In this document: positions 1 to 24,586 of the stretch, piece after piece
How the letters are laid out: each line of letters starts with the position of its first letter
Position numbering within the stretch: position 1 is the stretch's first letter
Source of the DNA: a virus
Lineage: Duplodnaviria > Heunggongvirae > Uroviricota > Caudoviricetes
DNA length: 24,586 nucleotides
Virus record (IMG/VR): IMGVR_UViG_2939142107_000008
Strand: one strand, 5' to 3'
Made by a program: the position numbers and the translations under genes
Notes under the pieces: model-generated
Databases searched by the model: none
What the model was told of the DNA's origin: nothing
Seen by the model: the letters and a program-made list of their open reading frames with translations, nothing else

Positions 1-780
1 ATGGAAAACAAAAAAAGTTGCGTTTATTGTAAAAGCACAACAAACTTAACTAAAGAACATATTTTCCCTTCAGCAATAATTAAAAGTTTTAATGTTGAAC
101 TTTTATCGATGACTGATAAGAGTGACTACCATTTTAAAGGCGATCCAGTTATTGGGGATGTATGCGCTGAGTGTAATAATGGAATACTGTCGCAACTAGA
201 TGCTGATTTCGTAACTTGTTTTAAAAATCAGATGCTAACACCTTTAAAACCCGGAAATGAAATAACATTTGAATATGAATATGATTTATTATTACGTGAA
301 CTTCTAAAGATATCATATAATTCAGCGAGGGCATCAAATGGTGGTTATAATGCCAGAGCCATTTTAGAAAAATACATACCATTCATAATCACTGGCAATA
401 AAAACAAAAATGTAGATAGTATAATTCTTTCCCTTCTAATTGTAACTTCTGCAAATATGGTTAATCTGGAAACTGGTAAACATGAAGAGCCTTTAGAACC
501 ATATCTATTAAGAAGCGCATCGATTGATGGTTTAAACCTCAACCCTAACAATTATATTGTTAGGATGGTTGCATTTAATAGCTTTTGGTTTTTTTTGTTA
601 ATTCCAAAGAGGCCAGTTACATCCAAAGTGAAAAAAGAATTTTGGGATGAATTTAAAAGAAAAAATCATCTGCATGGAGTTTTGTTAAAAAGAAACAACA
701 CGTCAATAAAGATCACAAAAGATAAAACGACATATTTGCATCCTGACTTAATAGAAAAGATGTGGCGAAAAATAAAGTAG
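1..780 (+). CDS. HNH-motif nuclease-domain protein (259 aa), possible stand-alone abortive-infection/defence gene
   Basis: N-terminal CxxC...EHIFP...CAECNNG (C-x2-C, E-H, C-x2-C-N) is a classic HNH zinc-finger nuclease signature; remainder has no recognisable motifs; very AT-rich codon usage unlike the phage core; ORF begins exactly at window position 1 so upstream context is unseen. Confidence 0.55.
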   Translation: MENKKSCVYCKSTTNLTKEHIFPSAIIKSFNVELLSMTDKSDYHFKGDPVIGDVCAECNNGILSQLDADFVTCFKNQMLTPLKPGNEITFEYEYDLLLRELLKISYNSARASNGGYNARAILEKYIPFIITGNKNKNVDSIILSLLIVTSANMVNLETGKHEEPLEPYLLRSASIDGLNLNPNNYIVRMVAFNSFWFFLLIPKRPVTSKVKKEFWDEFKRKNHLHGVLLKRNNTSIKITKDKTTYLHPDLIEKMWRKIK

Positions 781-1040
781 AACAAATTTTCCAGTTGACA
801 ATACCAAAAATAATTAATGGGGACTAGGTTAAATGACGCAGTGGAACAAACTCACCAGAGAAGAAAATTAATGGTATTAATGTTCAATGTGTTCATTACT
901 GTAACCTAGCCCCTACTAATTTATTCACTATATTGCTGAGTATGTCCGCATCTGGCACATAGCAGCCCTAGAGATAGGAGCACACAGTCATAGATGGTCG
1001 GTGGGAGGTAGTGAAAATCCTCTCATACAATAAATACGTA

Positions 1041-1130
1041 AAATCGATAACGGCAAGAGACCTTTCAATACTCGCACTATCGGAAGTTAACCAACCTGCC
1101 ACAGCACGTTCTCGCATACACGTGTCTGCG
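1041..1130. repeat. Copy A of ~90-bp imperfect direct repeat (partner at 3298..3388)
   Basis: aaatcgataacggc...cgcactatcg...gcatacacgtgtctgcg aligns colinearly with 3298..3388 at roughly three-quarters identity by eye; lies in the intergenic region 3' of the ATPase/RloB operon. Confidence 0.6.
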
Positions 1131-1194
1131 CCCCCCCCCCTCCATCAATCATAATCAGATAGAGCCAAAAAACAAAAACAAAAACAAAAAAAAC
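1131..1194. repeat. C10 homopolymer followed by A-rich (AAAAAC)n microsatellite
   Basis: Ten consecutive C at 1131..1140 directly abutting repeat copy A; aaaaaacaaaaacaaaaacaaaaaaaac at 1167..1194. Confidence 0.8.
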
Positions 1195-1391
1195 ATCAAG
1201 TTACAACAATAAAAAAGACGCCAGTCAACCGATGATGAAACAAATGAGGATACGCAAAGGAGCCGCAGCTCCCTAGTAATATGAAAGCCCAGACCATCAA
1301 AGCAGAAGACTGTTAAAATATCAAAAACCCGTTATCCGCTGAAACACAGTACTACTTTGTTTAAGTTAACGATATTGCCTCAAGGGCAGTT

Positions 1392-1925
1392 TTAAAATAC
1401 GGTGAATACATCACACAGGTCCGATAAAACTTCTCGACAAACATGCCTATGATCGCTGAGCACAGAGTTTATATGCTGAAGTGTTATATACTCTTCATAC
1501 CATTCTTGTGTTACAACATTTTTCAAATTATAGAGCCTGTGAAATGACTCTTTTGCCTCCTGCGAATTAACAAATTGTTGATTATGCCCCATTAACCTCA
1601 TTAAAAACCCCTCCAAACAAAATGGTGAGGATTGAATGATTTGTATGTCTCTATTTCTAGCAGCAGATAGAGCATCAGTAGGTATTGCAAGGTCTGAGTC
1701 AATAAAAACAACTCTTTTATCAAAACTACCAGCATGGTTTATAGCAGCCATTATAGCTGATTTCGGTCCTCCACCGCCGGCATCATCTAACCTAACACTA
1801 AACCCTGCAGTCCTAGTTGTTAAGAGTCGTTTTAAACAATCAGCAAATCTTTTATCAGTAATTCCTTCGCACATCAAAAGCTTAGTTCGTTCAACTCCAC
1901 GCTTTACACGTCTGGGCTTCATCAT
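1392..1925 (-). CDS. RloB/Toprim-like small protein (177 aa), putative nuclease partner of upstream ATPase
   Basis: N-terminal LLMCEGITDKRF resembles the CEGxxTE motif I recall for RloB-family proteins; later VVFIDSD gives a Toprim-like E...DxD arrangement; start ATGATG overlaps stop of the ATPase gene (1922..1925), implying an operon. Confidence 0.5.
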   Translation of the reverse strand: MMKPRRVKRGVERTKLLMCEGITDKRFADCLKRLLTTRTAGFSVRLDDAGGGGPKSAIMAAINHAGSFDKRVVFIDSDLAIPTDALSAARNRDIQIIQSSPFCLEGFLMRLMGHNQQFVNSQEAKESFHRLYNLKNVVTQEWYEEYITLQHINSVLSDHRHVCREVLSDLCDVFTVF

Positions 1926-3196
1926 AAGTCTGGTACTCCTCCAAAAGCACCAGCTAAATATTTAGCCGCAATATTATCGTCGACTCGCGCCTCACTGGAT
2001 GGAAAATCATCAAGTCGATAACATTCACTTCTATTGAATTTTTTCTCAGTAATCAACACACGGTACTTACCCAAATAATTTATCAATTCGGGTTTATGAC
2101 AAGTAAAAATTAACTGTGCATGTAACGGGTTTGTTTCTTTACTGATAAACAACTCTAATATAGGTTTAACCATATGTGGGTGCAAATCATCACCAAGTTC
2201 ATCAATAAAGCATGCTGTTCCTTTTTTCAGACATTGCATAATATTATGCAATCTGATAAATGCACTTTGTGTTCCAGCAGATTCGAATGCAAAGGGTAAC
2301 TCAAACTTGGAACCATCTTCTTTTTCATGAATACCATTTATAATATAATAAACATCCTTCTCACCGTTTATATCAACTTTCTCTTCTTTTTCTATAGTTA
2401 TATCATCTAAACCTAAATCCCATTTGCGTAAAATATTTTTTACACTTTTAAAGGCTACTGGATCTTTATATAAATCCTCCGCTGTCGCACCTAAATCTCC
2501 ATAATCATAGCTATACCTTCCCATAGCATTTACATTAGTAGTACTGCTCATTTTTTCGGCTATATCTATAGCCAAAGGAACACCTACACGGCGAGCTGCA
2601 GAAATTATACTTGTATTAGCAGGAGTTCTCTTACCCTCTAAAAGACCTAAAGGAAAAAGTTCTGCTTTTTCAACATAATCATATTTAATTGTTTTTAACA
2701 GTTCTTCAACTTCTTGATGACTAAAATCATCACTACAATTATTTAACTGTTTCTCATAATTTTCTTTATCCAACTTCCTTTTAAAAACATAGATATTTTT
2801 ATTTTTCTCATTTCTTACATACAATTCTTCTTTAATGACAAAATGGTCGCAGGCCGTAACAACATATGTGTATACTTTTCCATCTAAAACAAAACATATT
2901 TTAATCATACCTGGTTTTGTAAAAGGCCGATTAATGTTTAAATACAGATAATCAGTTACTTTTGCTGGTATAGACCAAAAAAACCAACTCAAGAAAGACA
3001 TTGGTTTAAGGAGTGTTGTCTTACCGGAGGCGTTCGCCCCCATGATAGCAGTAATCAGATTGACCTTGTGTCCATCTACATCTACCCACAGTTCTTTTTT
3101 CTTATCTTTAGCTGTAGTAGTTAGGTCTACGAACCCACCTTCATCTTCAAAGCTACCGATATTCTTAATCTCATACCAAAGTATAGCGTTAGCCAT
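1922..3196 (-). CDS. ABC-type ATPase (AAA_15/AAA_21-like, 424 aa), OLD/AbiLi/PARIS-AriA-like
   Basis: Walker A GANASGKTT near N-terminus; distal FESAGTQSAF, Walker B-like ACFIDELGDD and downstream H (FTCHKPE) consistent with split ABC ATPase fold; RBS agagggg upstream of ATG; AT-rich. Confidence 0.6.
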   Translation of the reverse strand: MANAILWYEIKNIGSFEDEGGFVDLTTTAKDKKKELWVDVDGHKVNLITAIMGANASGKTTLLKPMSFLSWFFWSIPAKVTDYLYLNINRPFTKPGMIKICFVLDGKVYTYVVTACDHFVIKEELYVRNEKNKNIYVFKRKLDKENYEKQLNNCSDDFSHQEVEELLKTIKYDYVEKAELFPLGLLEGKRTPANTSIISAARRVGVPLAIDIAEKMSSTTNVNAMGRYSYDYGDLGATAEDLYKDPVAFKSVKNILRKWDLGLDDITIEKEEKVDINGEKDVYYIINGIHEKEDGSKFELPFAFESAGTQSAFIRLHNIMQCLKKGTACFIDELGDDLHPHMVKPILELFISKETNPLHAQLIFTCHKPELINYLGKYRVLITEKKFNRSECYRLDDFPSSEARVDDNIAAKYLAGAFGGVPDL

Positions 3197-3297
3197 AACC
3201 CCTCTTTTTATACAAAAAAATGTTCAAAATCGCCACATGCTGAGTTTATAGCAGGAAGCGTATATAGCAAGCAAAAAAACATAGACATGATTTAGTT

Positions 3298-3388
3298 AAA
3301 TCGATAACGGCCGGAAATCATTCAATTCCCGCACTATCGAACGTTCACCAGCCAACCGCAAAACGTTATTGCATACAACGTTTCTGCG
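3298..3388. repeat. Copy B of ~90-bp imperfect direct repeat (partner at 1041..1130)
   Basis: Same motif order as copy A (aaatcgataacggc / cgcactatcg / gcatacaacgtttctgcg); located between tail-fibre stop and ATPase start. Confidence 0.6.
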
Positions 3389-3586
3389 GCATAATCCCAA
3401 TGATTACTCCCTGACAGGATTTGCAGGCCACTCAATATCAGGTGCAGTTGATGTATCAACACGGTTCAGCAACACCCGATACTTTTTCCAGGCTTCCAGC
3501 AACAAGGTTTCTTTCTCCGTTGCGATCTCCAGCTCAACAACAGTCTGAACGTACCGGGAACAGCCTCCTTCAGAGCTTGAAGGATA

Positions 3587-6154
3587 TCAATGTTCGCTTC
3601 CTGTTAACTGCCGGACAAGTGCAACCAGTTCGCTTACCTGATTTTCCAGAGTGCTGATCCGGGTGTCTGCTGTTGCCAGATTTTCACGTAGCGTTGTGTT
3701 TTCCTCTTCCAGCGCGGTAACGCGATCATCTGTTTCACGGGCGACCTGAACAAGTAAACCCGTCACGGCGGCGTAGTCAACATTAAGATAGCGCGTTTCT
3801 TCGCGTAGCTCGTTGCCGTCAACGGTCGGGCCTTGCAACTCTTCACCGTAATGAGTAAACGATCCCACAGCTTCTGGTATCGCCTCCATTACTTCCTGTG
3901 CAATAACGCCAGCATAAGGCATCCCGTTTTCCCTGAGCGTGTAGGTGTATCCGTTCATTTTACGGATTGCTTTCGTCGCGTCGCTGATAACGAGAATATC
4001 GTCTTTAAGGTCGCGGTCTGATGACTGATTCAGCGTTGTGCAATTAATAGCGCCATTTACATCAAACAACTGGCCTGCTGACGTTTTTTGCGCATAAAAC
4101 AGATACGCAGCAGACGTGCCAACCTCAAAAACGTTTTGTCGAGTACTGGAACCCCACACCCTGATACCAACTGGTAGTTCTGAATTACCTGAATTAAGTA
4201 AAGCAAAACGATTGCCAGTCCCTGTTTGTTTTCTAATTACTAAATCGGCAGTTGAGTTAACCTCATCTTTGTTGATGGTTAGCGCCTGTGCTGTAGCACC
4301 GTTGACAGTACCGCTTAGTAGTTGCACCGCGCCATCATCGCCATTTAACAGCACTTGAGCGCTGCTTCTGTGGTTTTTAAGGCACAACATTTTTCCCGTG
4401 TTTTTCGATGTACCTACTGACCACGCCGAATTGGTTCCAGTGCTATCAACACCGCGCACAGCACAATTCATACTACTGTAATCTGACGTACTCCCCAGCA
4501 CATCAACACGCCCGCCGCCTAATTTTGATGGAGTCGTCGAGGTTAACGACCTGACGGTTACATCCTGATTCCATCCTGAAACAACTACCTGACTCCACTC
4601 CGTCCAACTTCCATTGACAACAAAGCGAACGTATATGCGTTTTGTGTCGCTGCCAATCAGCGTTTGCATGATCGCATAATCTGAACCCGTAGTTTTACGA
4701 GTAGATTCTACACGTAGCAAAAAGTTACCGCTTACGCCGTCAGGCTTATTGGTAATATATGCACCACCTGCGACAGTTTTGCATTGATAGTATTTAACAG
4801 ATCCAGCCACTGTATTAGCAATGATCAAGTCGTTTAAATCAATAGTCTTGTTGTCAATGGTTTCCGGCTCGATAGATCCCGCCATACCTGCGTTAAATGT
4901 GGCAAGGTCAGAAAAGGTTGTTTTACCGCCTACCGTCACCCCGCTATCGAGTTTTGCTTGTGTGATTACTTTGCTGTTTTTTGTGTGGTCAGAATAACTA
5001 CCAAAATACAAATCACCGTCACCAGCTATACCCAGGTATTTTTGATCAACATCATCAACCTTAAACCCAATGGACAAGTTTTTAATTGTGTTGTTGCTCG
5101 TTAAAACCAAAGGCGTATGCTGAGATCCTTTGATGCTTACCGTAGTGTTATCGGAACTGGTGCTTGTGTTTGCAAATTCTGCGGTGGCTGCGCTGATTTT
5201 GTAAGTTATTTTTAGATTGCGGGCCTCAACCCTCCCGTCGTGGCGAACAATAAAATCACCACTTGATTCACCTTTTGTGTTTTTCGCCCTGATGTGGATT
5301 TCGCCAAGTGATTCGTTGTTTTCAGGCGACCAAACAACGCCGCGCTCGCTTCCGTCGTTGTTCATGAACCACAGATGAGCGGTTCCTTTTGCTGATTTTA
5401 GCCTGATAGATGGCGTTTCTTTCAATATATCAAGATCACCAGACATAACATCGCCGGATTTTTTCACCTGCGCATCGTTAGTTACGTTGCCAAGTCCAAC
5501 ATCCGATTTCGACGGCTTGTTTGCCGAGCCGTATAGCTCATTGATGCTAAAAGTCCCGTTGTTAAGCCGGGCATCGTTGCCGGCATAGATCTTAATCTTC
5601 GCGGTTGAGTAGTCGATATTGATCGCTGACCACGTATCGCCGCACCGCGAGAATATACCAGAACCGTGGCTATAAATGGTCGCCGTGCTTCCGGTCGGCC
5701 TATCACCGCGCCAGAAATGACCACCTTTGTCACGCAGAGCTTTTAAGATCTCTACATCGCTCATCTTGCCGTTTGTTGATATCCCGCTACCGCCAAGACC
5801 GAAAGCGCCTGTAAGCATAGCATTAGAAAGACCCAAATCTGCTTTAGTCGGCTTGTTTAACTGGTCGTAAATCCTTACAACGGGGCTTTCAACATATCCA
5901 GAAGGCGCGGCGGTTTGCTTAACAAATCCGTCTGGAATGTATAATTCCGTGCGTGCCGTCTGCGCCAGTACCGCAACCTTCAGGGGTATCCCTTTCACCT
6001 GGTTATCTCCCGCAACGGTATTCCCGGCAACCTGCCGGGTGGCAACCGAGACCGCTTTCTGTGCCACACGGTTTATCGCCCATGCGCTGGCCTGTGGCAC
6101 CATACGGGTATCAAGGCTGTTCAGATTGCGGATGGCATTCTCAAGCCCCTTCAT
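3587..6154 (-). CDS. Phage tail fibre/tail spike (855 aa) with C-terminal intramolecular-chaperone (peptidase S74-like) autoproteolytic domain
   Basis: Fibre-repeat-like segment (LGNVTNDAQVKKSGDVMSGDLDI); C-terminus SDRDLKDDILV...GYTYTL...GVIAQEVMEAIPEAV...YLNVDYAAVTGLLVQ matches the S-x4-K dyad and conserved blocks of self-cleaving C-terminal chaperone domains of endosialidase-type fibres; GAGG RBS. Confidence 0.8.
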   Translation of the reverse strand: MKGLENAIRNLNSLDTRMVPQASAWAINRVAQKAVSVATRQVAGNTVAGDNQVKGIPLKVAVLAQTARTELYIPDGFVKQTAAPSGYVESPVVRIYDQLNKPTKADLGLSNAMLTGAFGLGGSGISTNGKMSDVEILKALRDKGGHFWRGDRPTGSTATIYSHGSGIFSRCGDTWSAINIDYSTAKIKIYAGNDARLNNGTFSINELYGSANKPSKSDVGLGNVTNDAQVKKSGDVMSGDLDILKETPSIRLKSAKGTAHLWFMNNDGSERGVVWSPENNESLGEIHIRAKNTKGESSGDFIVRHDGRVEARNLKITYKISAATAEFANTSTSSDNTTVSIKGSQHTPLVLTSNNTIKNLSIGFKVDDVDQKYLGIAGDGDLYFGSYSDHTKNSKVITQAKLDSGVTVGGKTTFSDLATFNAGMAGSIEPETIDNKTIDLNDLIIANTVAGSVKYYQCKTVAGGAYITNKPDGVSGNFLLRVESTRKTTGSDYAIMQTLIGSDTKRIYVRFVVNGSWTEWSQVVVSGWNQDVTVRSLTSTTPSKLGGGRVDVLGSTSDYSSMNCAVRGVDSTGTNSAWSVGTSKNTGKMLCLKNHRSSAQVLLNGDDGAVQLLSGTVNGATAQALTINKDEVNSTADLVIRKQTGTGNRFALLNSGNSELPVGIRVWGSSTRQNVFEVGTSAAYLFYAQKTSAGQLFDVNGAINCTTLNQSSDRDLKDDILVISDATKAIRKMNGYTYTLRENGMPYAGVIAQEVMEAIPEAVGSFTHYGEELQGPTVDGNELREETRYLNVDYAAVTGLLVQVARETDDRVTALEEENTTLRENLATADTRISTLENQVSELVALVRQLTGSEH

Positions 6155-6165
6155 CCCACACCTCT

Positions 6166-6441
6166 TTACTCAATAAAGATCATTGGCTTACCGTTAAAAC
6201 GTTCATGCCGTGTGACCGTCCATTGTTGTCCGTCATAAACAACGCGATCCCCGCGCCGTGGGCGGTATCCCGAAGAAAACACCACCAGAGAGACCGCAGG
6301 TCCGGACAGAGCATTCAGCTCTGCCAGTGTTTCGCCCGGGATCACAGCCATATCGACATCATTAATCGAGGCTGTCTTTCCCATCTTTCTGACCGTGATC
6401 GCATCCATACGCGCTGCCAGCCGGGAAAAGGGATCAGACAT
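6166..6441 (-). CDS. Small phage head-completion/head-tail joining-like protein (91 aa), hypothetical
   Basis: Position between head genes and fibre; 8-nt overlap with upstream gene suggests translational coupling; no diagnostic motif. Confidence 0.4.
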   Translation of the reverse strand: MSDPFSRLAARMDAITVRKMGKTASINDVDMAVIPGETLAELNALSGPAVSLVVFSSGYRPRRGDRVVYDGQQWTVTRHERFNGKPMIFIE

Positions 6442-6757
6442 TGAGTTTTACCGGCACTTCTTCTGCACTGGTTCCGGCATCTGCCCAGACAACCCCGACC
6501 AGCGGATCAGAGCCGCTGTTAGTCAGCTGAACTTTTCCGGACTTCAGATAAACCTTCTTACCCGTTTTCATGTCATCCGTTTTCAGTTTAGGCAGGATAA
6601 ACACACCTTCGGTCATGCCGTCGCCTGTTTCACCCTGTGGAATATCGGTCAGCGCCACCGCAAAAACATCACCCACCTGCACCAGATCTCCGCTGCTGAT
6701 GGCTGCACTGGCAACAATCGCCACCGTTTTTCCTTCTTCTACAAAATTCTTTGCCAT
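6434..6757 (-). CDS. Small head-associated protein (107 aa from MAKNF start), hypothetical
   Basis: Start chosen at internal ATG preceded by GGAG (tgcggagacagttATG); directly downstream of capsid gene. Confidence 0.4.
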   Translation of the reverse strand: MAKNFVEEGKTVAIVASAAISSGDLVQVGDVFAVALTDIPQGETGDGMTEGVFILPKLKTDDMKTGKKVYLKSGKVQLTNSGSDPLVGVVWADAGTSAEEVPVKLNV

Positions 6758-6770
6758 AACTGTCTCCGCA

Positions 6771-6820
6771 CAGCCCCGTTCAGGGGCTGATTTCAGGTAC
6801 AAAAAAAGCCCTTACGGGCC
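6771..6820 (-). terminator. Hairpin plus T-tract after capsid gene and GC-rich leader hairpin before next gene
   Basis: Minus-strand reading gcccgtaagggc followed by T7, then 7-bp GC stem cagcccc/ggggctg just 5' of the RBS; the first stem is only 4 bp so termination is probably partial. Confidence 0.35.
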
Positions 6821-6843
6821 ATCAGAGTTGTTGTCTGCGACGT

Positions 6844-8988
6844 TTACGCCGTACATTTCACCAGACCGCGGTGATCAACTGGCGCGACACCGGCGTCAAT
6901 ACGCACTTTCGTTGTCACGCCATCCACACTGAAGCCCTCCATCTGATCAATATATGGCGTATCCACACCGTTGAGATAAGCCACTTCAATCGTATCGGAG
7001 CCTTTTGACGCAGCCAGGTAGAAGGTGGTCTGGCTGTTATCATCAAGACGAGGCTCTGCAATAACGGTCGCAAAATCTTTCACCGGGTTAATAATACCGG
7101 CGTTAATGTCAGCCCCCTTGACACTTGAGGAGCGAATGACCTGGTTAGCAACAGACTCCATCGCCGTCGGTACCAGTACGAACGCAGGACGAATATTCAG
7201 ATGACGCTCCCCCTCTTTCTGAACGCGCATCAACTGGCGGGCTTTATCCAGCGATGCCACGTCCATTGCAGCGCTCTCCAGTACGTTTGCATGTTTCGCT
7301 TTATCGAACAGACTTACATTATCTGTGGAGATTTTCGGGTTAGACGTCAGAATGGCATAAACCAGATCGGCAATAGTGGATTTCGCCGCACGGCCCAGTT
7401 TCATCGGGACATCGGTCAGCATATTCAGATCATCATTGATAATGGCCTGACGGGTGATACTGAACAGCTCGCCATAGGTCGCCAGTGCAATAGTGGCCTG
7501 TTTATCTCCGGTGGTGACGTATTTATATTCCGCCCCTTCACGCACCTGACGCAGAGCACTGAAGCCCCCCATACCCACACGATGGGCAATTTTAAAATCA
7601 GACAACTGACCTTTCCGCGTCCACTGTTCATAGGTTTCAGGGGCATCTTCCCAGCCCTGCAGAATGGCTTTGTTCGCAACATCCAGCAGAATATTACCGA
7701 AGTCAGACGTACTGTGTGTGAACGCCGCACCGACCATCTGCATCGGGTTATAACCGGAAACCCCAATACCCCGTTCAGTCAGTGACATACGGGCATATTC
7801 ACGCAGGGTCATCCCGTTGTAGACATTATCACGTTCGGTTTTTTCAAATCCGGCACGCGCCATCAGCGCCTGGCGAATCCCGTCCCCCACAAAATTACCG
7901 TTACCGGCATAAATATGAGCCGGGGTATTTTTATTGGATGGCGTGGACTCGCGCCCCATCTCGTTCAACAGCTTTTCACGGGCCTGCTCCAGCGAACATT
8001 CAGGATCGGCAAGACACTGAGCCTGCAGCGTCTGATAACGCCCGCCAAACATGGCAAACAGATCATTAATACCGTTTACACGCGCTTTTTGCTCTGCCAG
8101 TACCTGTGCACGGATGCTGTTTTCATCCACCACGGGTGCTGCTGCCTGCACTGGCGTCCGGGAGGCTTCAGATTCATTATCCTGTACGCGTGGAGCACTG
8201 TTGCGTGGCGGAGTAATCATGTTTCGAATGGATTCCGGCATCTTTTTAAATTCCTCTGTACGTTTTGACTGAATACATGCCATTGCCTTAACGGCTGGCG
8301 TTACCTGATCAGCAAATCCATGTGCCAGACATTCGGCACCGGACATCCAGGTCTCATCCGCCAGCATGGCAGCAATTTCATCGGTGGTTTTCCCGGTTTT
8401 CTGTGCATAAGCGGGTAACAGAACCGCCTCAACTTTATCGAGCAGGTCGGCATAGGTGCGCATGTCCTCCGCATCACCGCCCGTAAAGCCAAATGGTTTA
8501 TGAATCATCATGAAGGTGTTTTCCGGCATAATGACCGGGTTTCCCACCATCGCAATGACCGACGCCATTGACGCCGCCACACCGTCGACATAAACGGTAA
8601 TGGACGCACCATGTGTTTTCAGCGCATTAAAAATGGCGATGCCTTCAAAGACATCGCCACCCACGTTGTAGACGAACGAGTAAAGAGCGCCGCGCGTTGT
8701 TTCCGGTATATCGACTTTGATGTACGGGTTAATTTGTCTGGCAACCGTGGCAAGGTCTTTATTCAGGAGGGCTTTGCATTCTGCTTCGGTATACGTTTTA
8801 CCGAGCATGATGTCTTTTCCGGTGTGTCCGTGACATACAGTCCATACGCCAACGATATCTTTGTATGGTATGTAGCTGACACCTTCCAGGCCATCGTCAC
8901 CACTTGGGCCAGTGATTAACACTGATGCTATAGCAATTGCTCCGCCACCAATAGCAGCAGCAACTGCTTTTCGTAATGATGGAGGCAT
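6844..8988 (-). CDS. Chimeric ORF: SAR-endolysin N-terminal fragment fused in frame to ClpP-like prohead protease and major capsid domain (714 aa)
   Basis: Residues 1 to ~88 ([30 protein letters not shown]...YSFVYNVGG) match my recollection of the phage 21 SAR endolysin, including the SAR helix and the E/D/T catalytic region; from [13 protein letters not shown] onward the sequence is ClpP-like (GxxASMASxIAMxG, MIHKP); C-terminal ~450 aa is capsid-sized and follows the protease as in protease-MCP fusions. Confidence 0.7.
8725..8988 (-). pseudogene. R: Truncated SAR endolysin (5' fragment, C-terminal ~75 aa missing)
   Basis: Endolysin-like sequence stops abruptly at ...YNVGG and continues as ClpP-like sequence; junction coordinate approximate (about aa 88). 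Confidence 0.6.
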
Positions 8989-17418: not shown

Positions 17419-17671
17419 GGCTTACCTCCTGTTCCTGTGGTTTAAACCCATTCTGGTTTTGGCTAGATTGAAAACGTGCCGGATAAAGAATCTGCATTTC
17501 GCTGATTTCACCCTTAAAAAAATTGGCCAGACGTTCTGCAAGATCGATAGATGGAATTTGTTCCAGTCTTTCAATACGACTCAGCGTCGCTGGATTGACC
17601 TGAACGCCAGCAGCAACATGCTGCAAAGTAAATCCGTGCGCCTTACGCACATTCCGTAATGGTGATTGCAT
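17411..17671 (-). CDS. cro: Cro-like HTH (XRE-family) regulator
   Basis: GFTLQHVAAGVQVNPATLSRIE helix-turn-helix; GGAGG RBS; divergent from repressor gene. Confidence 0.7.
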   Translation of the reverse strand: MQSPLRNVRKAHGFTLQHVAAGVQVNPATLSRIERLEQIPSIDLAERLANFFKGEISEMQILYPARFQSSQNQNGFKPQEQEVSRG

Positions 17672-22088: not shown

Positions 22089-23128
22089 AGGCTGAAGCAT
22101 GGCGGGTCAGCAAACTTGGTGAAATACCTGATATAACGTTCGAGGAAGCGTGTGTCAGGTGGCTTGAAGAGAAAGCACATAAAAAATCACTGGACGATGA
22201 CAAAAGCCGGATCGGATTCTGGCTTCAACATTTCGCAGGAATGCAACTAAGAGACATTACTGAATCAAAAATTTATTCAGCAATGCAGAAAATGACGAAC
22301 CGGCGTCATGAGGAAAACTGGAAACTCAGGGCAGAAGCATGCAGAAAAAAAGGGAAACCTGTTCCAGAATACACGCCAAAACCAGCGTCCGTTGCAACGA
22401 AGGCTACGCATCTTTCATTTATAAAGGCCCTACTAAGAGCCGCAGAGCGTGAATGGAAAATGCTGGATAAGGCACCAATTATTAAAGTGCCTCAACCAAA
22501 GAATAAACGGATCCGCTGGCTGGAGCCCCATGAAGCACAAAGGCTGATTGATGAATGTCCGGAGCCATTAAAGTCTGTTGTTGAATTTGCACTGGCAACA
22601 GGTTTAAGACGCTCGAACATCATCAACCTTGAATGGCAACAAATAGATATGCAGCGCCGGGTGGCATGGATAAACCCGGAAGAGAGTAAATCAAACCGCG
22701 CAATCGGCGTTGCGCTGAATGATACTGCATGTCGCGTTTTGAAAAAACAAATCGGGAATCATCACCGTTGGGTATTTGTGTACAAGGAAAGCTGTACCAA
22801 ACCAGACGGAACGAAAGCGCCAACAGTAAGGAAGATGCGGTATGACGCAAACACAGCCTGGAAAGCGGCGCTGAGACGAGCTGGTATTGATGATTTCAGA
22901 TTTCACGACTTGAGACACACCTGGGCAAGTTGGCTGGTTCAAGCCGGAGTCCCGTTGTCAGTGTTACAGGAAATGGGTGGCTGGGAGTCTATCGAAATGG
23001 TTCGTCGATATGCTCACCTCGCGCCTAATCACCTTACCGAACACGCACGGCAAATAGACTCGATTCTGAACCCATCGGTCCCAAATTTGTCCCAGTCAAA
23101 AAATAAGGAAGGTACTAATGATGTGTAA
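21965..23128 (+). CDS. int: Tyrosine site-specific integrase (387 aa)
   Basis: C-terminal catalytic region with R (ATGLRRSNI), HDLRHT box and YAHL tyrosine motif; stop lies 14 nt from the 3' end of the tRNA. Confidence 0.9.
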
Positions 23129-23142
23129 CTTATTGATTTAAA

Positions 23143-23218
23143 TGGTGCCGATAATAGGAGTCGAACCTACGACCTTCGCATTACGAATGCGCTGCTCTAC
23201 CAACTGAGCTATATCGGC
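23143..23218 (-). tRNA. thrW: tRNA-Thr (anticodon CGT)
   Basis: Reverse complement reads GCCGATATAGCTCAGTTGGTAGAGCAGCGCATTCGTAATGCGAAGGTCGTAGGTTCGACTCCTATTATCGGCACCA; 7-bp acceptor stem GCCGATA/TATCGGC, anticodon loop TTCGTAA, GTTCGA T-loop, CCA end. Confidence 0.9.
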
Positions 23219-23332: not shown

Positions 23333-24586
23333 TTACGCACGAATGGTGTAATCACCAATACCGATCCACTTGTAAGTGGTCAGTGCTTCCAGCCCCATTG
23401 GGCCACGCGCGTGGAGTTTTTGTGTGCTTACCGCCACTTCCGCACCTAGTCCAAACTGGCCGCCGTCGGTAAAACGCGTAGAGGCGTTAACGTAAACAGC
23501 GGACGAATCCACTTCGTTAACAAAACGCTGGGCGTTGCGCATATCGCGGGTCAGGATCGCATCGGAGTGTTGTGTGCCGTGTTCACGAATATGGGCGATG
23601 GCATCGTCAAGATCACTGACGATTTTGACGTTCAAATCTAATGACAGAAACTCATCGTCATACTCTTCCGCTTTAACAGCCACCACCTTCGCGGGGCCTG
23701 TCTGCAACTGCGCCAGCGCAGCTGCATCTGCGTGTAATGCCACGCCGCTTTCCTCCATTTGTTTGCTTAATGCGGGCAGGAAGCTATCGGCGATGTTTTT
23801 ATTCACCAGCAACGTTTCTACCGTATTACATGTGCTCGGACGCTGAGTTTTCGCGTTGACGATCACTTTTAATGCTTCAGCAATCTCTACACTTTCATCA
23901 ACATAAATATGGCATACGCCTATACCACCTGTGATCACCGGGATCGTCGACTGTTCGCGGCACAGTTTATGCAAACCAGCGCCACCACGCGGGATCAGCA
24001 TGTCGATGTATTTATCCATACGCAGCATTTCACTGACCAGCGCACGGTCAGGATTATCAATCGCCTGCACGGCACCCACCGGTAAGCCACAGGATTTCAG
24101 GGCGTCCTGAATCACCGCCACCGTTGCCGCGTTAGTGCGACAGGTTTCTTTACCGCCACGCAGAATCACTGCGTTACCGGTTTTCAGGCACAGCGAAGCG
24201 ACATCAACCGTCACGTTCGGGCGCGCTTCATAAATCACGCCAATAACCCCCAGCGGTACGCGACGACGCTCAAGACGCAGGCCGCTGTCCAGTACGCTGC
24301 CATCGATTACCTGCCCCACCGGATCGGCGAGGTTACACACCTGGCGCACATCATCGGCAATGCCTTTCAGCCGTGCGGGCGTCAGTGCCAGACGGTCAAG
24401 CATCGCTTCGCCAAGGCCATTGGCACGCGCGTCAGCAACATCCTGGGCGTTAGCGTTGAGGATGATTTCGCTTTGTGCTTCCAGTTCATCGGCGATTTTT
24501 TCCAGCACGCGATTTTTTTCGCGGCTGGAGAGTTGCGCTAATTTATACGAGGCTTGCTTCGCGGCAATGCCCATTTGTTCCAGCAT
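23333..24586 (-). CDS. proA: Gamma-glutamyl phosphate reductase (glutamate-5-semialdehyde dehydrogenase)
   Basis: 417-aa ORF starting [20 protein letters not shown] with aldehyde-dehydrogenase-fold motifs; matches E. coli ProA as I recall it; adjacent to thrW as in E. coli. Confidence 0.9.

What the first reader, a model, noticed from the sequence alone, without database searches (positions are those of the whole stretch)
1041..3388. Two ~90-bp direct repeats bracket the ATPase/RloB cassette
Directly seen: 1041..1130 and 3298..3388 share the same ordered motifs (aaatcgataacggc, cgcactatcg, gcataca(a)cg, tctgcg) in direct orientation, about 2.26 kb apart, exactly flanking the two-gene operon. 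Neither is inside a credible ORF. Inference: they could be conserved cassette boundaries (a recombination hotspot permitting cargo swapping), duplicated regulatory or terminator segments, or remnants of site-specific recombination. Copy A is immediately followed by a C10 tract.
Basis: seen in the sequence. Interest (0 to 1): 0.5.

Follow-up and report, generated by a model that had tools for sequence, protein, structure and literature searches.

The report
Conserved boundary element flanking defence cassette
The two repeats are real copies of a folded, roughly 100-base non-coding element that sits at the end of the tail-fibre genes in almost every E. coli prophage and in phage lambda itself. 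It acts as a shared landing strip where phages swap accessory genes, here an AbiL-type anti-phage cassette.

Summary
Window 1036-1130 and 3294-3391 are direct repeats (78% identity over 94 nt, in-window blastn E 6e-16) that bracket an AbiLi/AbiLii cassette.

- **Not a local duplication.** Each copy is closer to copies in other phages than to its partner.
- **A large unannotated family ("E").** It has 17,540 places in 5,406 of 5,426 complete E. coli genomes. It also occurs in Shigella, Citrobacter, Salmonella, Trabulsiella and Pantoea, and in phages lambda, HK97, phi80 and Stx phages.
- **Structure.** E has two hairpins supported by covariation (14 of 19 pairs show changes on both sides). It lies at the distal end of the tail-fibre block, usually facing a convergent dinI-like gene, an integrase or att.
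- **Pairs bracket varied cargo.** An upstream copy (usually hairpin 1 only) plus a full copy enclose ea47 in lambda, PD-T4-3, a methyltransferase and others.
- **Direct recombination evidence.** E. coli F467 carries the same AbiL block (99.7%) joined to a different prophage type, with the crossover inside copy B.
- **The cassette is independent cargo.** AbiL cassettes in P2-like and integrase-linked contexts lack E.

Best reading: a terminator-like boundary module that doubles as a homologous-recombination linker for an accessory and defence gene slot. Site-specific recombination and chance are rejected. The sequence-specific function of E is unknown.

The parts
3294..3391 (-). Element E, copy B (full). 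It starts 13-16 nt after the stop codon of the tfa remnant. Hairpin 1 is about 3356-3390 and hairpin 2 about 3309-3353.
   Evidence: nhmmer E 7e-25, profile positions 3-100. The late-strand fold is -40.4 kcal/mol, z -2.8. It is a chimera: hairpin 1 is 97% identical to the tfaR-linked copy in L002, and the distal part is 98% identical to L075.
1036..1130 (-). Element E, copy A (full). Hairpin 1 is about 1098-1131 and is weakened at its outer end, where the G10 run abuts.
   Evidence: nhmmer E 1e-21, profile positions 6-101. It is 81% identical to lambda 24163-24262. Its fold is no better than shuffles (z -0.18).
942..1035 (-). Conserved non-coding extension downstream (late direction) of copy A
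   Evidence: Window 942-1130 matches lambda 24163-24351 at 82% over 190 nt. The same flank follows E in L007, L020, L032, L034 and others.
1131..1140 (+). C10 homopolymer (G10 on the late strand) abutting hairpin 1 of copy A
   Evidence: Read directly. It is unchanged in F467. G-runs of other lengths (G5, G9) precede hairpin 1 in L020 and L085.
1178..1290 (-). Conserved non-coding flank upstream (late direction) of copy A. It contains a small hairpin, GGAGC-TGCG-GCTCC, followed by TTTG.
   Evidence: It is 72-88% identical to the sequence immediately upstream of E in L034, L110, L201, L244 and others. In L110 this flank has stops in all frames.
1384..3282 (-). Mobile AbiL cassette: upstream region, abiLi and abiLii. 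G+C is 28-41%.
   Evidence: It is 72-77% identical at the nucleotide level to cassettes in L128-L131, which lack E.
1922..3196 (-). abiLi-like AAA ATPase gene (424 aa)
   Evidence: PADLOC AbiLi 2.5e-66. Pfam AAA_21 4.7e-19.
1392..1925 (-). abiLii-like gene (177 aa), overlapping abiLi by 4 nt
   Evidence: PADLOC AbiLii 1.5e-9. No Pfam hit.
3404..3538 (-). 3' remnant of a tail fibre assembly gene (tfa); its stop codon TAA is at 3406-3404
   Evidence: PGAP pseudogene in the identical genome AR437. It is 87% identical to the end of lambda tfa.
3587..6154 (-). Side tail fibre gene with an S74 self-cleaving chaperone domain. This is the last late gene upstream of E.
   Evidence: Pfam Peptidase_S74 5.6e-12. 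PGAP names it 'pyocin knob domain-containing S74 family peptidase'.
1..780 (+). Convergent 259-aa ORF between copy A and the prophage end. Function unknown; there is a weak HNH_5 hit.
   Evidence: It is not related to lambda Ea31. It occurs in only 13 complete E. coli genomes, always together with the AbiL block.
23125..23188 (.). att repeat (3' part of tRNA-Thr). The other copy lies 511-574 nt left of the window start. Together they define the prophage whose right end holds the two E copies.
   Evidence: A 64-nt, 100% repeat between the window and L001 2528-2591. tRNA-Thr(CGT) is at 23143-23218.

Best explanation
The two repeats are independent members of a widespread, unannotated ~100-nt element, called E here. 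E marks the distal boundary of the tail-fibre (late) gene block in lambdoid and e14/SfV-like temperate phages of enterobacteria.

**What is shown**
- E has a conserved two-hairpin architecture.
- It lies between the late genes and the variable accessory region next to att.
- The genes on both sides of it are shuffled in all combinations.
- E copies are themselves mosaics.
- One natural recombinant has its crossover inside copy B.

**What is inferred**
- E is kept because it ends or insulates transcription between the late operon and the convergent accessory genes. Hairpin 1 would be a transcript 3'-end hairpin.
- Because E is one of the few sequences shared by otherwise dissimilar phages, phage and host homologous recombination uses it as a portable homology arm.
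- A cargo block that carries its own E on one side can be recombined in behind the resident E. This leaves two diverged direct copies around the cargo.

In this window the slot holds an AbiLi/AbiLii abortive-infection cassette that is itself mobile and has its own upstream region. In lambda the same slot holds ea47. The pair also allows loss of the cargo by recombination between the two copies.
For: **The repeat is real.**

**Family size and spread**
- 203 and 174 phage records, including lambda, HK97, HK106, phi80, mEp460 and Stx phages.
- 17,540 places in 5,406 of 5,426 complete E. coli genomes, median 3 per genome, almost never annotated.
- Full copies in Escherichia, Shigella, Citrobacter, Salmonella, Trabulsiella and Pantoea.

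**Structure**
- 85.6% of cells are paired, against 17-59% when partners are slid.
- 14 of 19 pairs show changes on both sides, and 0 of 500 shuffles reach the observed values.

**Position**
- Upstream neighbours are tail fibre, Tfa, Pin invertase or others.
- In 61 of 120 loci the downstream neighbour is a convergent dinI-like gene whose stop is about 5 nt from E. Otherwise it is an integrase, sitD and so on.
- In HK97, E abuts sequence I recognise from memory as the lambda tI/sib hairpin.
- EDL933 has tfa'-E-dinI-ssrA, and MLI023K2 has pin'-E-intS-tRNA.

**Shuffling across E.** All four combinations of upstream families {c0, c4} with downstream families {c2, c7} occur.

**Pairs bracket varied cargo**
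- Lambda: hairpin 1 copy at 22571-22613, ea47, then a full copy at 24160-24258.
- 12 of 120 IMG/VR loci have two copies. Their cargos are PD-T4-3 (2e-140), a SAM methyltransferase, an SDH-protease-like protein and a 208-aa ORF.

**Direct recombination evidence**
- F467 has window 1-3360 at 99.7% identity, joined to pinE of a prophage with myovirus-type baseplate genes.
- Divergence begins at 3361, inside hairpin 1 of copy B.
- Copy B is itself a chimera.

**The copies are not a local duplication.** A and B are 77% identical and rank 45th and 53rd of 87 relative to each other.

**The cassette is independent cargo.** Homologous AbiL cassettes in P2-like tail-fibre and integrase-adjacent contexts have no E.

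**Terminator-like role**
- Hairpin 1 aligns to the 3'-terminal hairpin of Rfam CssrB in the late orientation.
- Hairpin 1 occurs alone after late genes.

**Mechanistic precedent.** Lambda recombines with defective prophages through 88-95% identical stf/tfa segments (PMC3945230).
Against: - No experiment shows termination. Neither window copy has a U-tract after hairpin 1 on either strand. Only 37 of 110 distinct copies have one, and then on the opposite strand. The consensus scan found no terminator or promoter in E.
- The strong conservation of the roughly 30-nt loop of hairpin 2 is not explained by termination or by recombination alone.
- G-U versus A-C counts give no strand preference (71 vs 106).
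- No 'empty site' of this exact prophage (tfa'-E-259-aa ORF without AbiL) exists among 5,426 genomes. The insertion event itself is therefore not reconstructed.
- 78% identity over 94 nt is a poor substrate for RecA, so exchange between A and B themselves would be rare.
- Most second copies elsewhere are hairpin 1 only. The window's pair of full copies is unusual.
- The CssrB match is far below Rfam's gathering score (31-37 vs 76 bits). I could not check how that sRNA's 3' end was defined.
Confidence: 0.65

Rival explanations
1. E is primarily a functional structured RNA with a sequence-specific job. It could be the element that stops or processes Q-antiterminated late transcripts. It could also be the 3' UTR of the convergent dinI-like gene, which might give rise to a 3'-UTR-derived small RNA. 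On this view the bracketing of cargo is a by-product. This reading overlaps with the best explanation and does not exclude it.
For: - Covariation supports both hairpins.
- The loop of hairpin 2 and the loop of hairpin 1 are conserved in sequence between E. coli-type and Salmonella-type copies.
- The late-strand RNA is the more stable strand in 82 of 88 copies (-35.8 vs -29.4 kcal/mol).
- The dinI stop codon lies about 5 nt from E in 61 of 120 loci.
- About a third of copies have hairpin 1 followed by a U-run on the dinI strand.
- The CssrB sRNA ends in hairpin 1.
Against: - No Rfam family covers E, and there is no hit at E<=1 on the window copies.
- There is no strand signal from G-U vs A-C counts.
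- Copy A folds no better than shuffles.
- E persists where dinI is absent, as in lambda, the window and HK97.
- No promoter was found for an independent transcript.
- With hairpin-1-based sampling the core is not invariant.
Confidence: 0.3
2. The two copies are sites of a site-specific recombination system, like integron attC sites or invertase sites, that captures and excises the cassette.
For: - The copies are direct repeats bracketing a discrete cargo.
- A Pin-family invertase gene lies immediately upstream of E in 14 or more of 120 loci and in F467.
Against: - The junctions are not at a fixed position. Partial copies end at profile positions 40, 45, 47 or 63. The F467 crossover lies somewhere within a 72-nt identical stretch.
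- Cassette homology stops 13 nt beyond copy B but about 250 nt short of copy A.
- The window has no recombinase near the copies.
- AbiL cassettes elsewhere lack E.
- From my own knowledge, Pin/Hin/Gin crossover sites lie inside the fibre genes and have a different consensus. This was not tested here.
Confidence: 0.05
3. The repeat is a local duplication made when the cassette inserted, either as a target-site duplication or as a tandem duplication that later diverged.
For: The orientation is direct and the copies sit on either side of a low-G+C insert.
Against: - A and B are 77% identical, yet the block is 99.7-100% identical among 13 genomes.
- Each copy has closer relatives elsewhere: B is 90.6% identical to L075 and A is 84.4% identical to L117/L013. 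Relative to each other they rank 45th and 53rd of 87.
- Copy A carries its own conserved flanks, shared with lambda and other phages.
Confidence: 0.03
4. The similarity is chance resemblance in AT-rich sequence.
For: None beyond the modest 78% identity.
Against: In-window blastn gives E 6e-16, and profile E-values are 1e-21 and 7e-25. There are thousands of homologous copies.
Confidence: 0.005

Closest known systems
PeSL (promoter-early stem-loop) mobile regulatory cassettes of T4-type phages (Arbiol et al. 2010, PMC2839356; abstract read)
   Same: Both are short, repeated non-coding cassettes with a stem-loop, concentrated in the plastic part of a phage genome. Both flank non-essential ORFs, and recombination between copies drives modular shuffling.
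   Different: - PeSLs contain a strong sigma-70 early promoter. E shows none at the scan's threshold.
- PeSLs occur many times per genome. E occurs once or twice per prophage, at one defined junction.
- E has two hairpins and belongs to temperate enterobacterial phages.
- No mini-circles have been shown for E.
Boundary or linker sequences of the modular theory of lambdoid phage evolution, and moron units of promoter-gene-terminator (my own knowledge: Susskind & Botstein 1978; Juhala et al. 2000; not read here)
   Same: In both, conserved short sequences at module junctions allow homologous exchange between otherwise dissimilar lambdoid phages. Accessory genes are bounded by their own transcription signals.
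   Different: I could not find this particular element described. It is a specific structured family with covariation, and it is shared across siphovirus-type and myovirus-type tail modules.
[quoted passage not shown] 2022, PMC9122126; Vassallo et al. 2022, PMC9519451; NAR 2026, PMC13586616)
   Same: Both are a fixed position in a temperate phage where diverse anti-phage systems replace one another. AbiL cassettes homologous to the window's also sit in a P2-like tail-fibre hotspot.
   Different: Those hotspots are defined by flanking conserved genes. Here at least one flank is a conserved non-coding element, which offers a concrete homology arm. The NAR 2026 paper notes that homologous exchange 'would require flanking homologous genes'.
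Rfam RF02799 CssrB (chromosome-encoded Shigella sRNA B)
   Same: The last ~40 nt of the CssrB model are hairpin 1 of E, in the late-strand orientation.
   Different: Only the terminal hairpin matches (31-37 bits against a gathering score of 76). The other 140 nt of CssrB are unrelated to E, and the window copies give no hit.
Late-operon terminators t'J1-t'J4 of lambda (my own recollection of Luk & Szybalski 1983; not retrievable here)
   Same: They are reported as tandem terminators beyond gene J in the b region. This is where lambda's hairpin-1 copy (22571-22613) and full E (24160-24258) lie.
   Different: I could not obtain their coordinates, so identity with E is an untested lead.
Bidirectional intrinsic terminators between convergent genes
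   Same: E has a GC-rich hairpin between convergent transcription units. In about a third of copies an A-run precedes hairpin 1, which gives a U-tract on the opposite strand.
   Different: There is no U-tract on the late strand, and none on either strand in the two window copies. E also carries a second, longer hairpin with a conserved loop.

Membership tests
Intrinsic (Rho-independent) terminator | Stable GC-rich stem-loop | tested here: met
   Hairpin 1 has 11-12 pairs, 86% of cells paired, and 9 of 11 pairs with changes on both sides. Folds are -15 to -30 kcal/mol.
Intrinsic (Rho-independent) terminator | U-tract immediately 3' of the stem | tested here: not met
   On the late strand the stem is followed by UGGCUGG. 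On the opposite strand a U-rich run follows in only 37 of 110 distinct copies, and in neither window copy. The consensus scan reports no terminator in E.
PeSL-type mobile regulatory cassette | Strong sigma-70 promoter within the cassette | tested here: not met
   No promoter-like site with at least 9 of 12 matches lies in 1036-1130 or 3294-3391. By eye the best candidate is TTGAAT-17-GATTTT.
PeSL-type mobile regulatory cassette | Stem-loop, repeated copies flanking accessory ORFs, and recombination between copies | tested here: met
.
Site-specific recombination site (attC-like or invertase site) | Fixed crossover position and a cognate recombinase nearby | tested here: not met
   Junctions vary (profile positions 40, 45, 47 and 63). 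There is no recombinase near the window copies, and pin is adjacent in only a minority of loci.
Transposable element (IS or MITE) | Terminal inverted repeats, target-site duplication, and scattered insertion sites in both orientations | tested here: not met
   No inverted repeat pairs the two copies or the ends of one copy. Every copy seen has the same orientation relative to the late genes and sits at the same junction.
Rfam RF02799 CssrB | Score at or above the gathering threshold over the model | tested here: not met
   31.7-37.2 bits against 76, and only for the terminal hairpin. The window gives no hit.
AbiL abortive-infection system (the cargo) | AbiLi-type AAA ATPase | tested here: met
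   PADLOC AbiLi 2.5e-66; Pfam AAA_21 4.7e-19.
AbiL abortive-infection system (the cargo) | Adjacent AbiLii (RloB-type) partner in one operon | tested here: met
   PADLOC AbiLii 1.5e-9. The genes overlap by 4 nt at 1922-1925. Pfam RloB itself is not matched.
AbiL abortive-infection system (the cargo) | Protects against phage infection | not testable with these tools
   This requires plaque assays.

The most novel reading that the evidence does not exclude
E is an undescribed functional RNA (or DNA) element of temperate enterobacterial phages, present even in lambda. Its conserved two-hairpin fold and conserved loops would do something specific at the end of the late operon. One possibility is halting or processing Q-antiterminated transcription before it runs into the accessory, att and host region. 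Another is yielding a regulatory RNA from the dinI 3' UTR. Its role as a recombination linker would then be secondary.
Probability: 0.3. Interest if true: 0.75.

Novelty: new variant of a known kind. Interest (0 to 1): 0.55.

Why it matters
- **A concrete mechanism for cargo exchange.** How defence systems and virulence cargo move between unrelated prophages is an open question. Recent work on P2/P4 hotspots notes that homologous exchange needs shared flanks. E is a shared, non-coding flank present in almost every E. coli genome. It is used by lambda-like and e14/SfV-like phages alike, and a natural crossover has been caught inside it.
- **A searchable landmark.** E defines a slot in lambdoid prophages that holds AbiL, PD-T4-3 and lambda ea47. 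Lambda's Septu-like Ea59/Ea31 pair lies just beyond it, and T3SS effectors lie just upstream in EHEC. It could therefore be used to mine new accessory and defence genes.
- **An unannotated element in lambda.** A covariation-supported structure in the lambda b region has no annotation, and it may bear on how late transcription ends.

Tried and rejected
- **Coding potential.** A reverse-strand ORF runs through lambda's copy, but it is broken by stops in the window copies, and the family has 1-nt indels. Rejected.
- **Rfam.** The only match is a sub-threshold hit of hairpin 1 to the CssrB 3' end.
- **Strand assignment.** G-U vs A-C counts were uninformative (71 vs 106), partly because MAFFT misaligns the inner stem of Salmonella-type copies. 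Energies favour the late strand, but base composition could explain that.
- **Known motifs, by eye only.** I looked for sigma-70, sigma-E, sigma-54, LexA, IHF, Fur and ARG boxes and for Pin/Hin crossover-site motifs in the conserved loop. None matched convincingly.
- **Homology of the 259-aa ORF to lambda Ea31.** None found.
- **Empty-site search.** The block of the 259-aa ORF plus copy A occurs only with AbiL, in 13 genomes.
- **Literature.**
  - No paper in the library contains the core sequence.
  - The Luk & Szybalski terminator papers and the Casjens & Hendrix review are not held.
  - A search for 'CssrB' returned only perovskite chemistry.
- **Ascertainment bias.** The first collection used a pattern inside the core, which inflated its apparent invariance. 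A second scan keyed on hairpin 1 showed 1-2 substitutions in the core of many copies, and many hairpin-1-only copies.
- **Wasted output.** An orientation mistake in one script produced a meaningless L127 alignment (second half). It is ignored.
Full report
**1. The observation**

The window is the right-hand part of a lambdoid prophage of E. coli, and the minus strand is the direction of late transcription. Reading in that direction:

- The side tail fibre gene (3587-6154) is followed by a 45-codon remnant of tfa, whose stop codon is at 3406-3404.
- Repeat copy B follows (3294-3391).
- Next comes a low-G+C two-gene operon (3196-1392).
- Then about 260 nt of T-rich sequence ends in a G10 run.
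- Repeat copy A follows (1130-1036).
- Last is a convergent 259-aa ORF (1-780).

The repeat is real. The repeat finder gives 83 nt at 77%. blastn gives 77.7% over 94 nt with E 6e-16 against the window. A profile built from other copies finds exactly these two sites (E 1e-21 and 7e-25).

The operon encodes an AbiLi-like ATPase (PADLOC 2.5e-66) and an AbiLii-like protein (1.5e-9). The C10 tract is at 1131-1140.

**2. The repeat belongs to a very large family**

I call the element E. It is found widely:

- In 203 and 174 phage records, including lambda, HK97, HK106, phi80, mEp460 and Stx phages.
- In at least 120 IMG/VR contigs, where the scan was cut at its limit.
- At 17,540 places in 5,406 of 5,426 complete E. 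coli genomes, with a median of 3 and a maximum of 10 per genome. Of the 30 records listed in that table, 26 have no annotation under the match.

Across one genome per species, full copies occur in Escherichia, Shigella, Citrobacter, Salmonella, Trabulsiella and Pantoea. Nineteen hits in unrelated taxa are lambda DNA contamination. About fifteen others match only the 20-nt pattern by chance.

Lambda itself has a full copy at 24160-24258, between ea47 and ea31. It also has a hairpin-1-only copy at 22571-22613, directly after tfa. In K-12, Qin has a full copy about 190 nt inside its end, and Rac has only hairpin 1.

**3. Anatomy of E**

In the late-strand orientation, E has four parts:

- Hairpin 1: GCCGCAG(c)CACGT, loop CGTATGCAAGAA, ACGTGCTGCGGC.
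- Hairpin 2: an outer stem GGCTGG/CCAGCC and an inner stem TTCGAT/ATTGAA.
- A conserved central loop within hairpin 2.
- A tail, GTTACCGATTTTAC.

On 88 distinct copies, the named structure has 85.6% of cells paired, against 17-59% with slid partners. Fourteen of 19 pairs show changes on both sides, and no shuffle of 500 reaches the observed values.

The strand is not resolved:

- G-U and A-C counts give no preference.
- The late-strand RNA is more stable in 82 of 88 copies.

No Rfam family covers E. The only signal is that hairpin 1 aligns to the 3'-terminal hairpin of CssrB, a Shigella sRNA, in the late orientation and far below threshold.

Hairpin 1 lacks a U-tract on the late strand. An A-run precedes it, which would give a U-tract on the opposite strand, in 37 of 110 distinct copies but in neither window copy. 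The consensus scan finds neither a promoter nor a terminator in the two copies.

**4. Position**

E always lies at the distal end of the tail-fibre module and always in the same orientation.

- The upstream neighbour is a tail fibre gene, tfa, a Pin-family invertase, a 97-aa membrane protein or various reverse-oriented genes.
- In 61 of 120 loci the downstream neighbour is a convergent dinI-like gene whose stop codon is about 5 nt from E. Otherwise it is an integrase, sitD, or a 95-nt extension shared with lambda.
- In HK97, E is followed directly by sequence I recognise from memory as the lambda tI/sib hairpin, which lies next to attP in lambda. That identification was not checked here.
- In EDL933 the order is effector genes, tfa remnant, E, dinI, ssrA. 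In MLI023K2 it is tfa, acetyltransferase, pin remnant, E, intS, tRNA.

E is therefore the boundary between the conserved late genes and the variable accessory region next to att.

**5. E as an exchange point**

- **Flanks are shuffled.** Upstream and downstream gene families occur in all combinations across E. For example, c0 and c4 each occur with c2 and with c7.
- **E copies are mosaics.** Copy B has a hairpin 1 that is 97% identical to the tfaR-linked copy in L002. Its distal part is 98% identical to L075, which has a different hairpin 1.
- **A crossover is caught in E.**
  - E. coli F467 carries window 1-3360 at 99.7% identity. This stretch covers the 259-aa ORF, copy A, AbiL and most of copy B.
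  - Upstream, the block is joined to pinE and the baseplate genes of an e14/SfV-like prophage. In the window it is joined to a tfa remnant and an S74 fibre.
  - The two sequences diverge from 3361 on, inside hairpin 1 of copy B.
- **Pairs of E enclose varied cargo.**
  - Lambda encloses ea47.
  - Five IMG/VR loci enclose PD-T4-3 (PADLOC 2e-140).
  - Four enclose a SAM methyltransferase plus a tfa fragment.
  - Two enclose an SDH-protease-like protein.
  - One encloses a 208-aa ORF.
  - The window encloses AbiL.
  - In most pairs the upstream copy is hairpin 1 only. The window is the only case seen with two full copies.
- **The AbiL cassette is separate cargo.** Cassettes 72-77% identical over window 1384-3282 sit after the tail-fibre genes of P2-like phages and next to integrases, with no E nearby. 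Copy A, in contrast, carries conserved non-coding flanks of its own on both sides. Window 942-1035 matches lambda 24263-24351. Window 1178-1290 matches the sequence just upstream of E in other phages; in one of them, L110, the forward cargo is a 491-aa ORF that looks like a C5-methyltransferase (by eye only).

**6. What this excludes**

- **Chance** is excluded.
- **A duplication made by the insertion** is excluded. A and B are 77% identical and rank 45th and 53rd of 87 relative to each other, yet the whole block is 99.7-100% identical among 13 genomes.
- **Site-specific recombination** is disfavoured. The junction positions differ between loci (profile positions 40, 45, 47 and 63). The cassette's own homology ends 13 nt from copy B but about 250 nt from copy A. 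No recombinase is consistently present.
- **Coding** is excluded.

**7. Most likely mechanism**

Shown:

- E is a conserved, structured boundary element.
- Exchange of flanking modules occurs within it.

Inferred:

- E is maintained because it ends or insulates transcription between the late operon and convergent accessory genes.
- Its conservation makes it a homology arm for Red-, Rad52-like- or RecA-mediated exchange. Exchange of this kind has been demonstrated for lambda and defective prophages in the neighbouring stf/tfa region (PMC3945230).
- A cargo block bounded by its own E can be recombined behind the resident E, which gives the observed pair of diverged direct repeats.

Not explained: why the loop of hairpin 2 is so conserved. 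This leaves room for a sequence-specific RNA or protein-binding function (the rival and novel reading, about 0.3).

**8. Comparison with known systems**

- The closest functional analogue is the PeSL cassette of T4-type phages. It is a repeated promoter plus stem-loop unit whose recombination shuffles accessory ORFs. E lacks the promoter and sits at a single junction.
- Conceptually, E is a concrete instance of the linker sequences postulated for lambdoid modular evolution (my own knowledge).
- It is a lambdoid counterpart of the P2/P4 defence hotspots.
- Lambda's t'J terminators may coincide with it, but I could not check their coordinates.
- I found no description of the element itself.

**9. 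Verdict**

- The 'cassette boundary and recombination hotspot' reading is supported, the 'terminator segment' reading is plausible, and the 'site-specific remnant' reading is rejected.
- Novelty: a new variant of a known kind.
- Interest: moderate (0.55). The element is ubiquitous, structured, present in lambda, unannotated and tied to a defence-gene slot. However, it fits established ideas of phage mosaicism, and its molecular function is untested.

Noticed in passing
window 5979-6154 (junction at about 5980): The 855-aa tail fibre ORF begins with 54 residues of minor tail protein Z. Window 5979-8000 is 99% identical to the head/Z region of mEp460-type phages. The otherwise identical genomes (L001, L127) diverge from the window exactly at 5980, and no complete E. 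coli genome has this junction. The prophage seems to have lost all tail-shaft genes (about 23.7 kb between its att sites).
   Followed up: partly
window 23125-23188 and 23143-23218: A 64-nt stretch that includes the 3' part of tRNA-Thr(CGT) is repeated 511-574 nt to the left of the window start (L001 2528-2591). These are the att repeats of the prophage. Copy A lies about 1.6 kb from the right-hand att.
   Followed up: partly
window 3404-3538: Only the last 45 codons of tfa remain, next to a fibre that carries its own S74 intramolecular chaperone. This marks another recombination junction, inside tfa.
   Followed up: no
window 3447-3647 (-): A sub-threshold Rfam hit to IS009, a candidate E. 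coli sRNA (92.5 bits against 117; 114.8 bits in L056). It covers the tfa remnant and the end of the fibre gene.
   Followed up: no
L193 4995-5089 (E. coli EC20017429, between ykgJ and ecpE): An orphan E followed by a decayed dinI remnant sits in the chromosome between ykgJ and ecpE, with no phage genes annotated in the 10-kb stretch. Six further genomes match over the same part of E (query positions 15-103), but I did not look at their contexts. It is probably an old prophage scar and may contribute to the near-universal presence of E.
   Followed up: partly
L003 5510-7974 (lambda ea31 and ea59): Lambda Ea59 hits PADLOC PtuA (5e-184) and PDC-M01A. Ea31 hits PDC-M01B (6e-113). This is a Septu-like ATPase plus HNH nuclease pair lying just beyond lambda's full E copy.
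   Followed up: partly
L134, L137, L142, L146, L149, L153 and others (genome-contig hits): Nineteen of 59 hits, in assemblies named Streptomyces, Enterococcus, Vibrio, Pseudomonas, Shewanella and so on, are at least 99% identical to lambda. Several are low-coverage contigs of about 48.5 kb. This is lambda DNA contamination of public assemblies.
   Followed up: yes
window 1131-1140; L020 and L085 upstream of their hairpin-1 copies: The G-run before hairpin 1 differs in length between loci (G5, G9, G10). In other phages it follows a palindrome, CCAATCATGATTGG. It is unchanged between the window and F467, where the only length change is in the A-run at 1186.
   Followed up: partly
L192 (EDL933, prophage at ssrA): T3SS effector genes (espW, espM2 and two NleG-like DUF1076 genes) sit between a tail-fibre fragment and the tfa'-E-dinI end. 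The effector locus of EHEC prophages therefore uses the same junction region, with its breakpoint in tfa and not in E.
   Followed up: no
L195, L199, L264 and 31 further IMG/VR loci: A common variant of E is truncated at about position 62 (...GAGCTTTCGATAGTGG) and continues into unrelated sequence. Other loci keep hairpin 1 alone. Hairpin 1 therefore behaves as a separable unit.
   Followed up: partly
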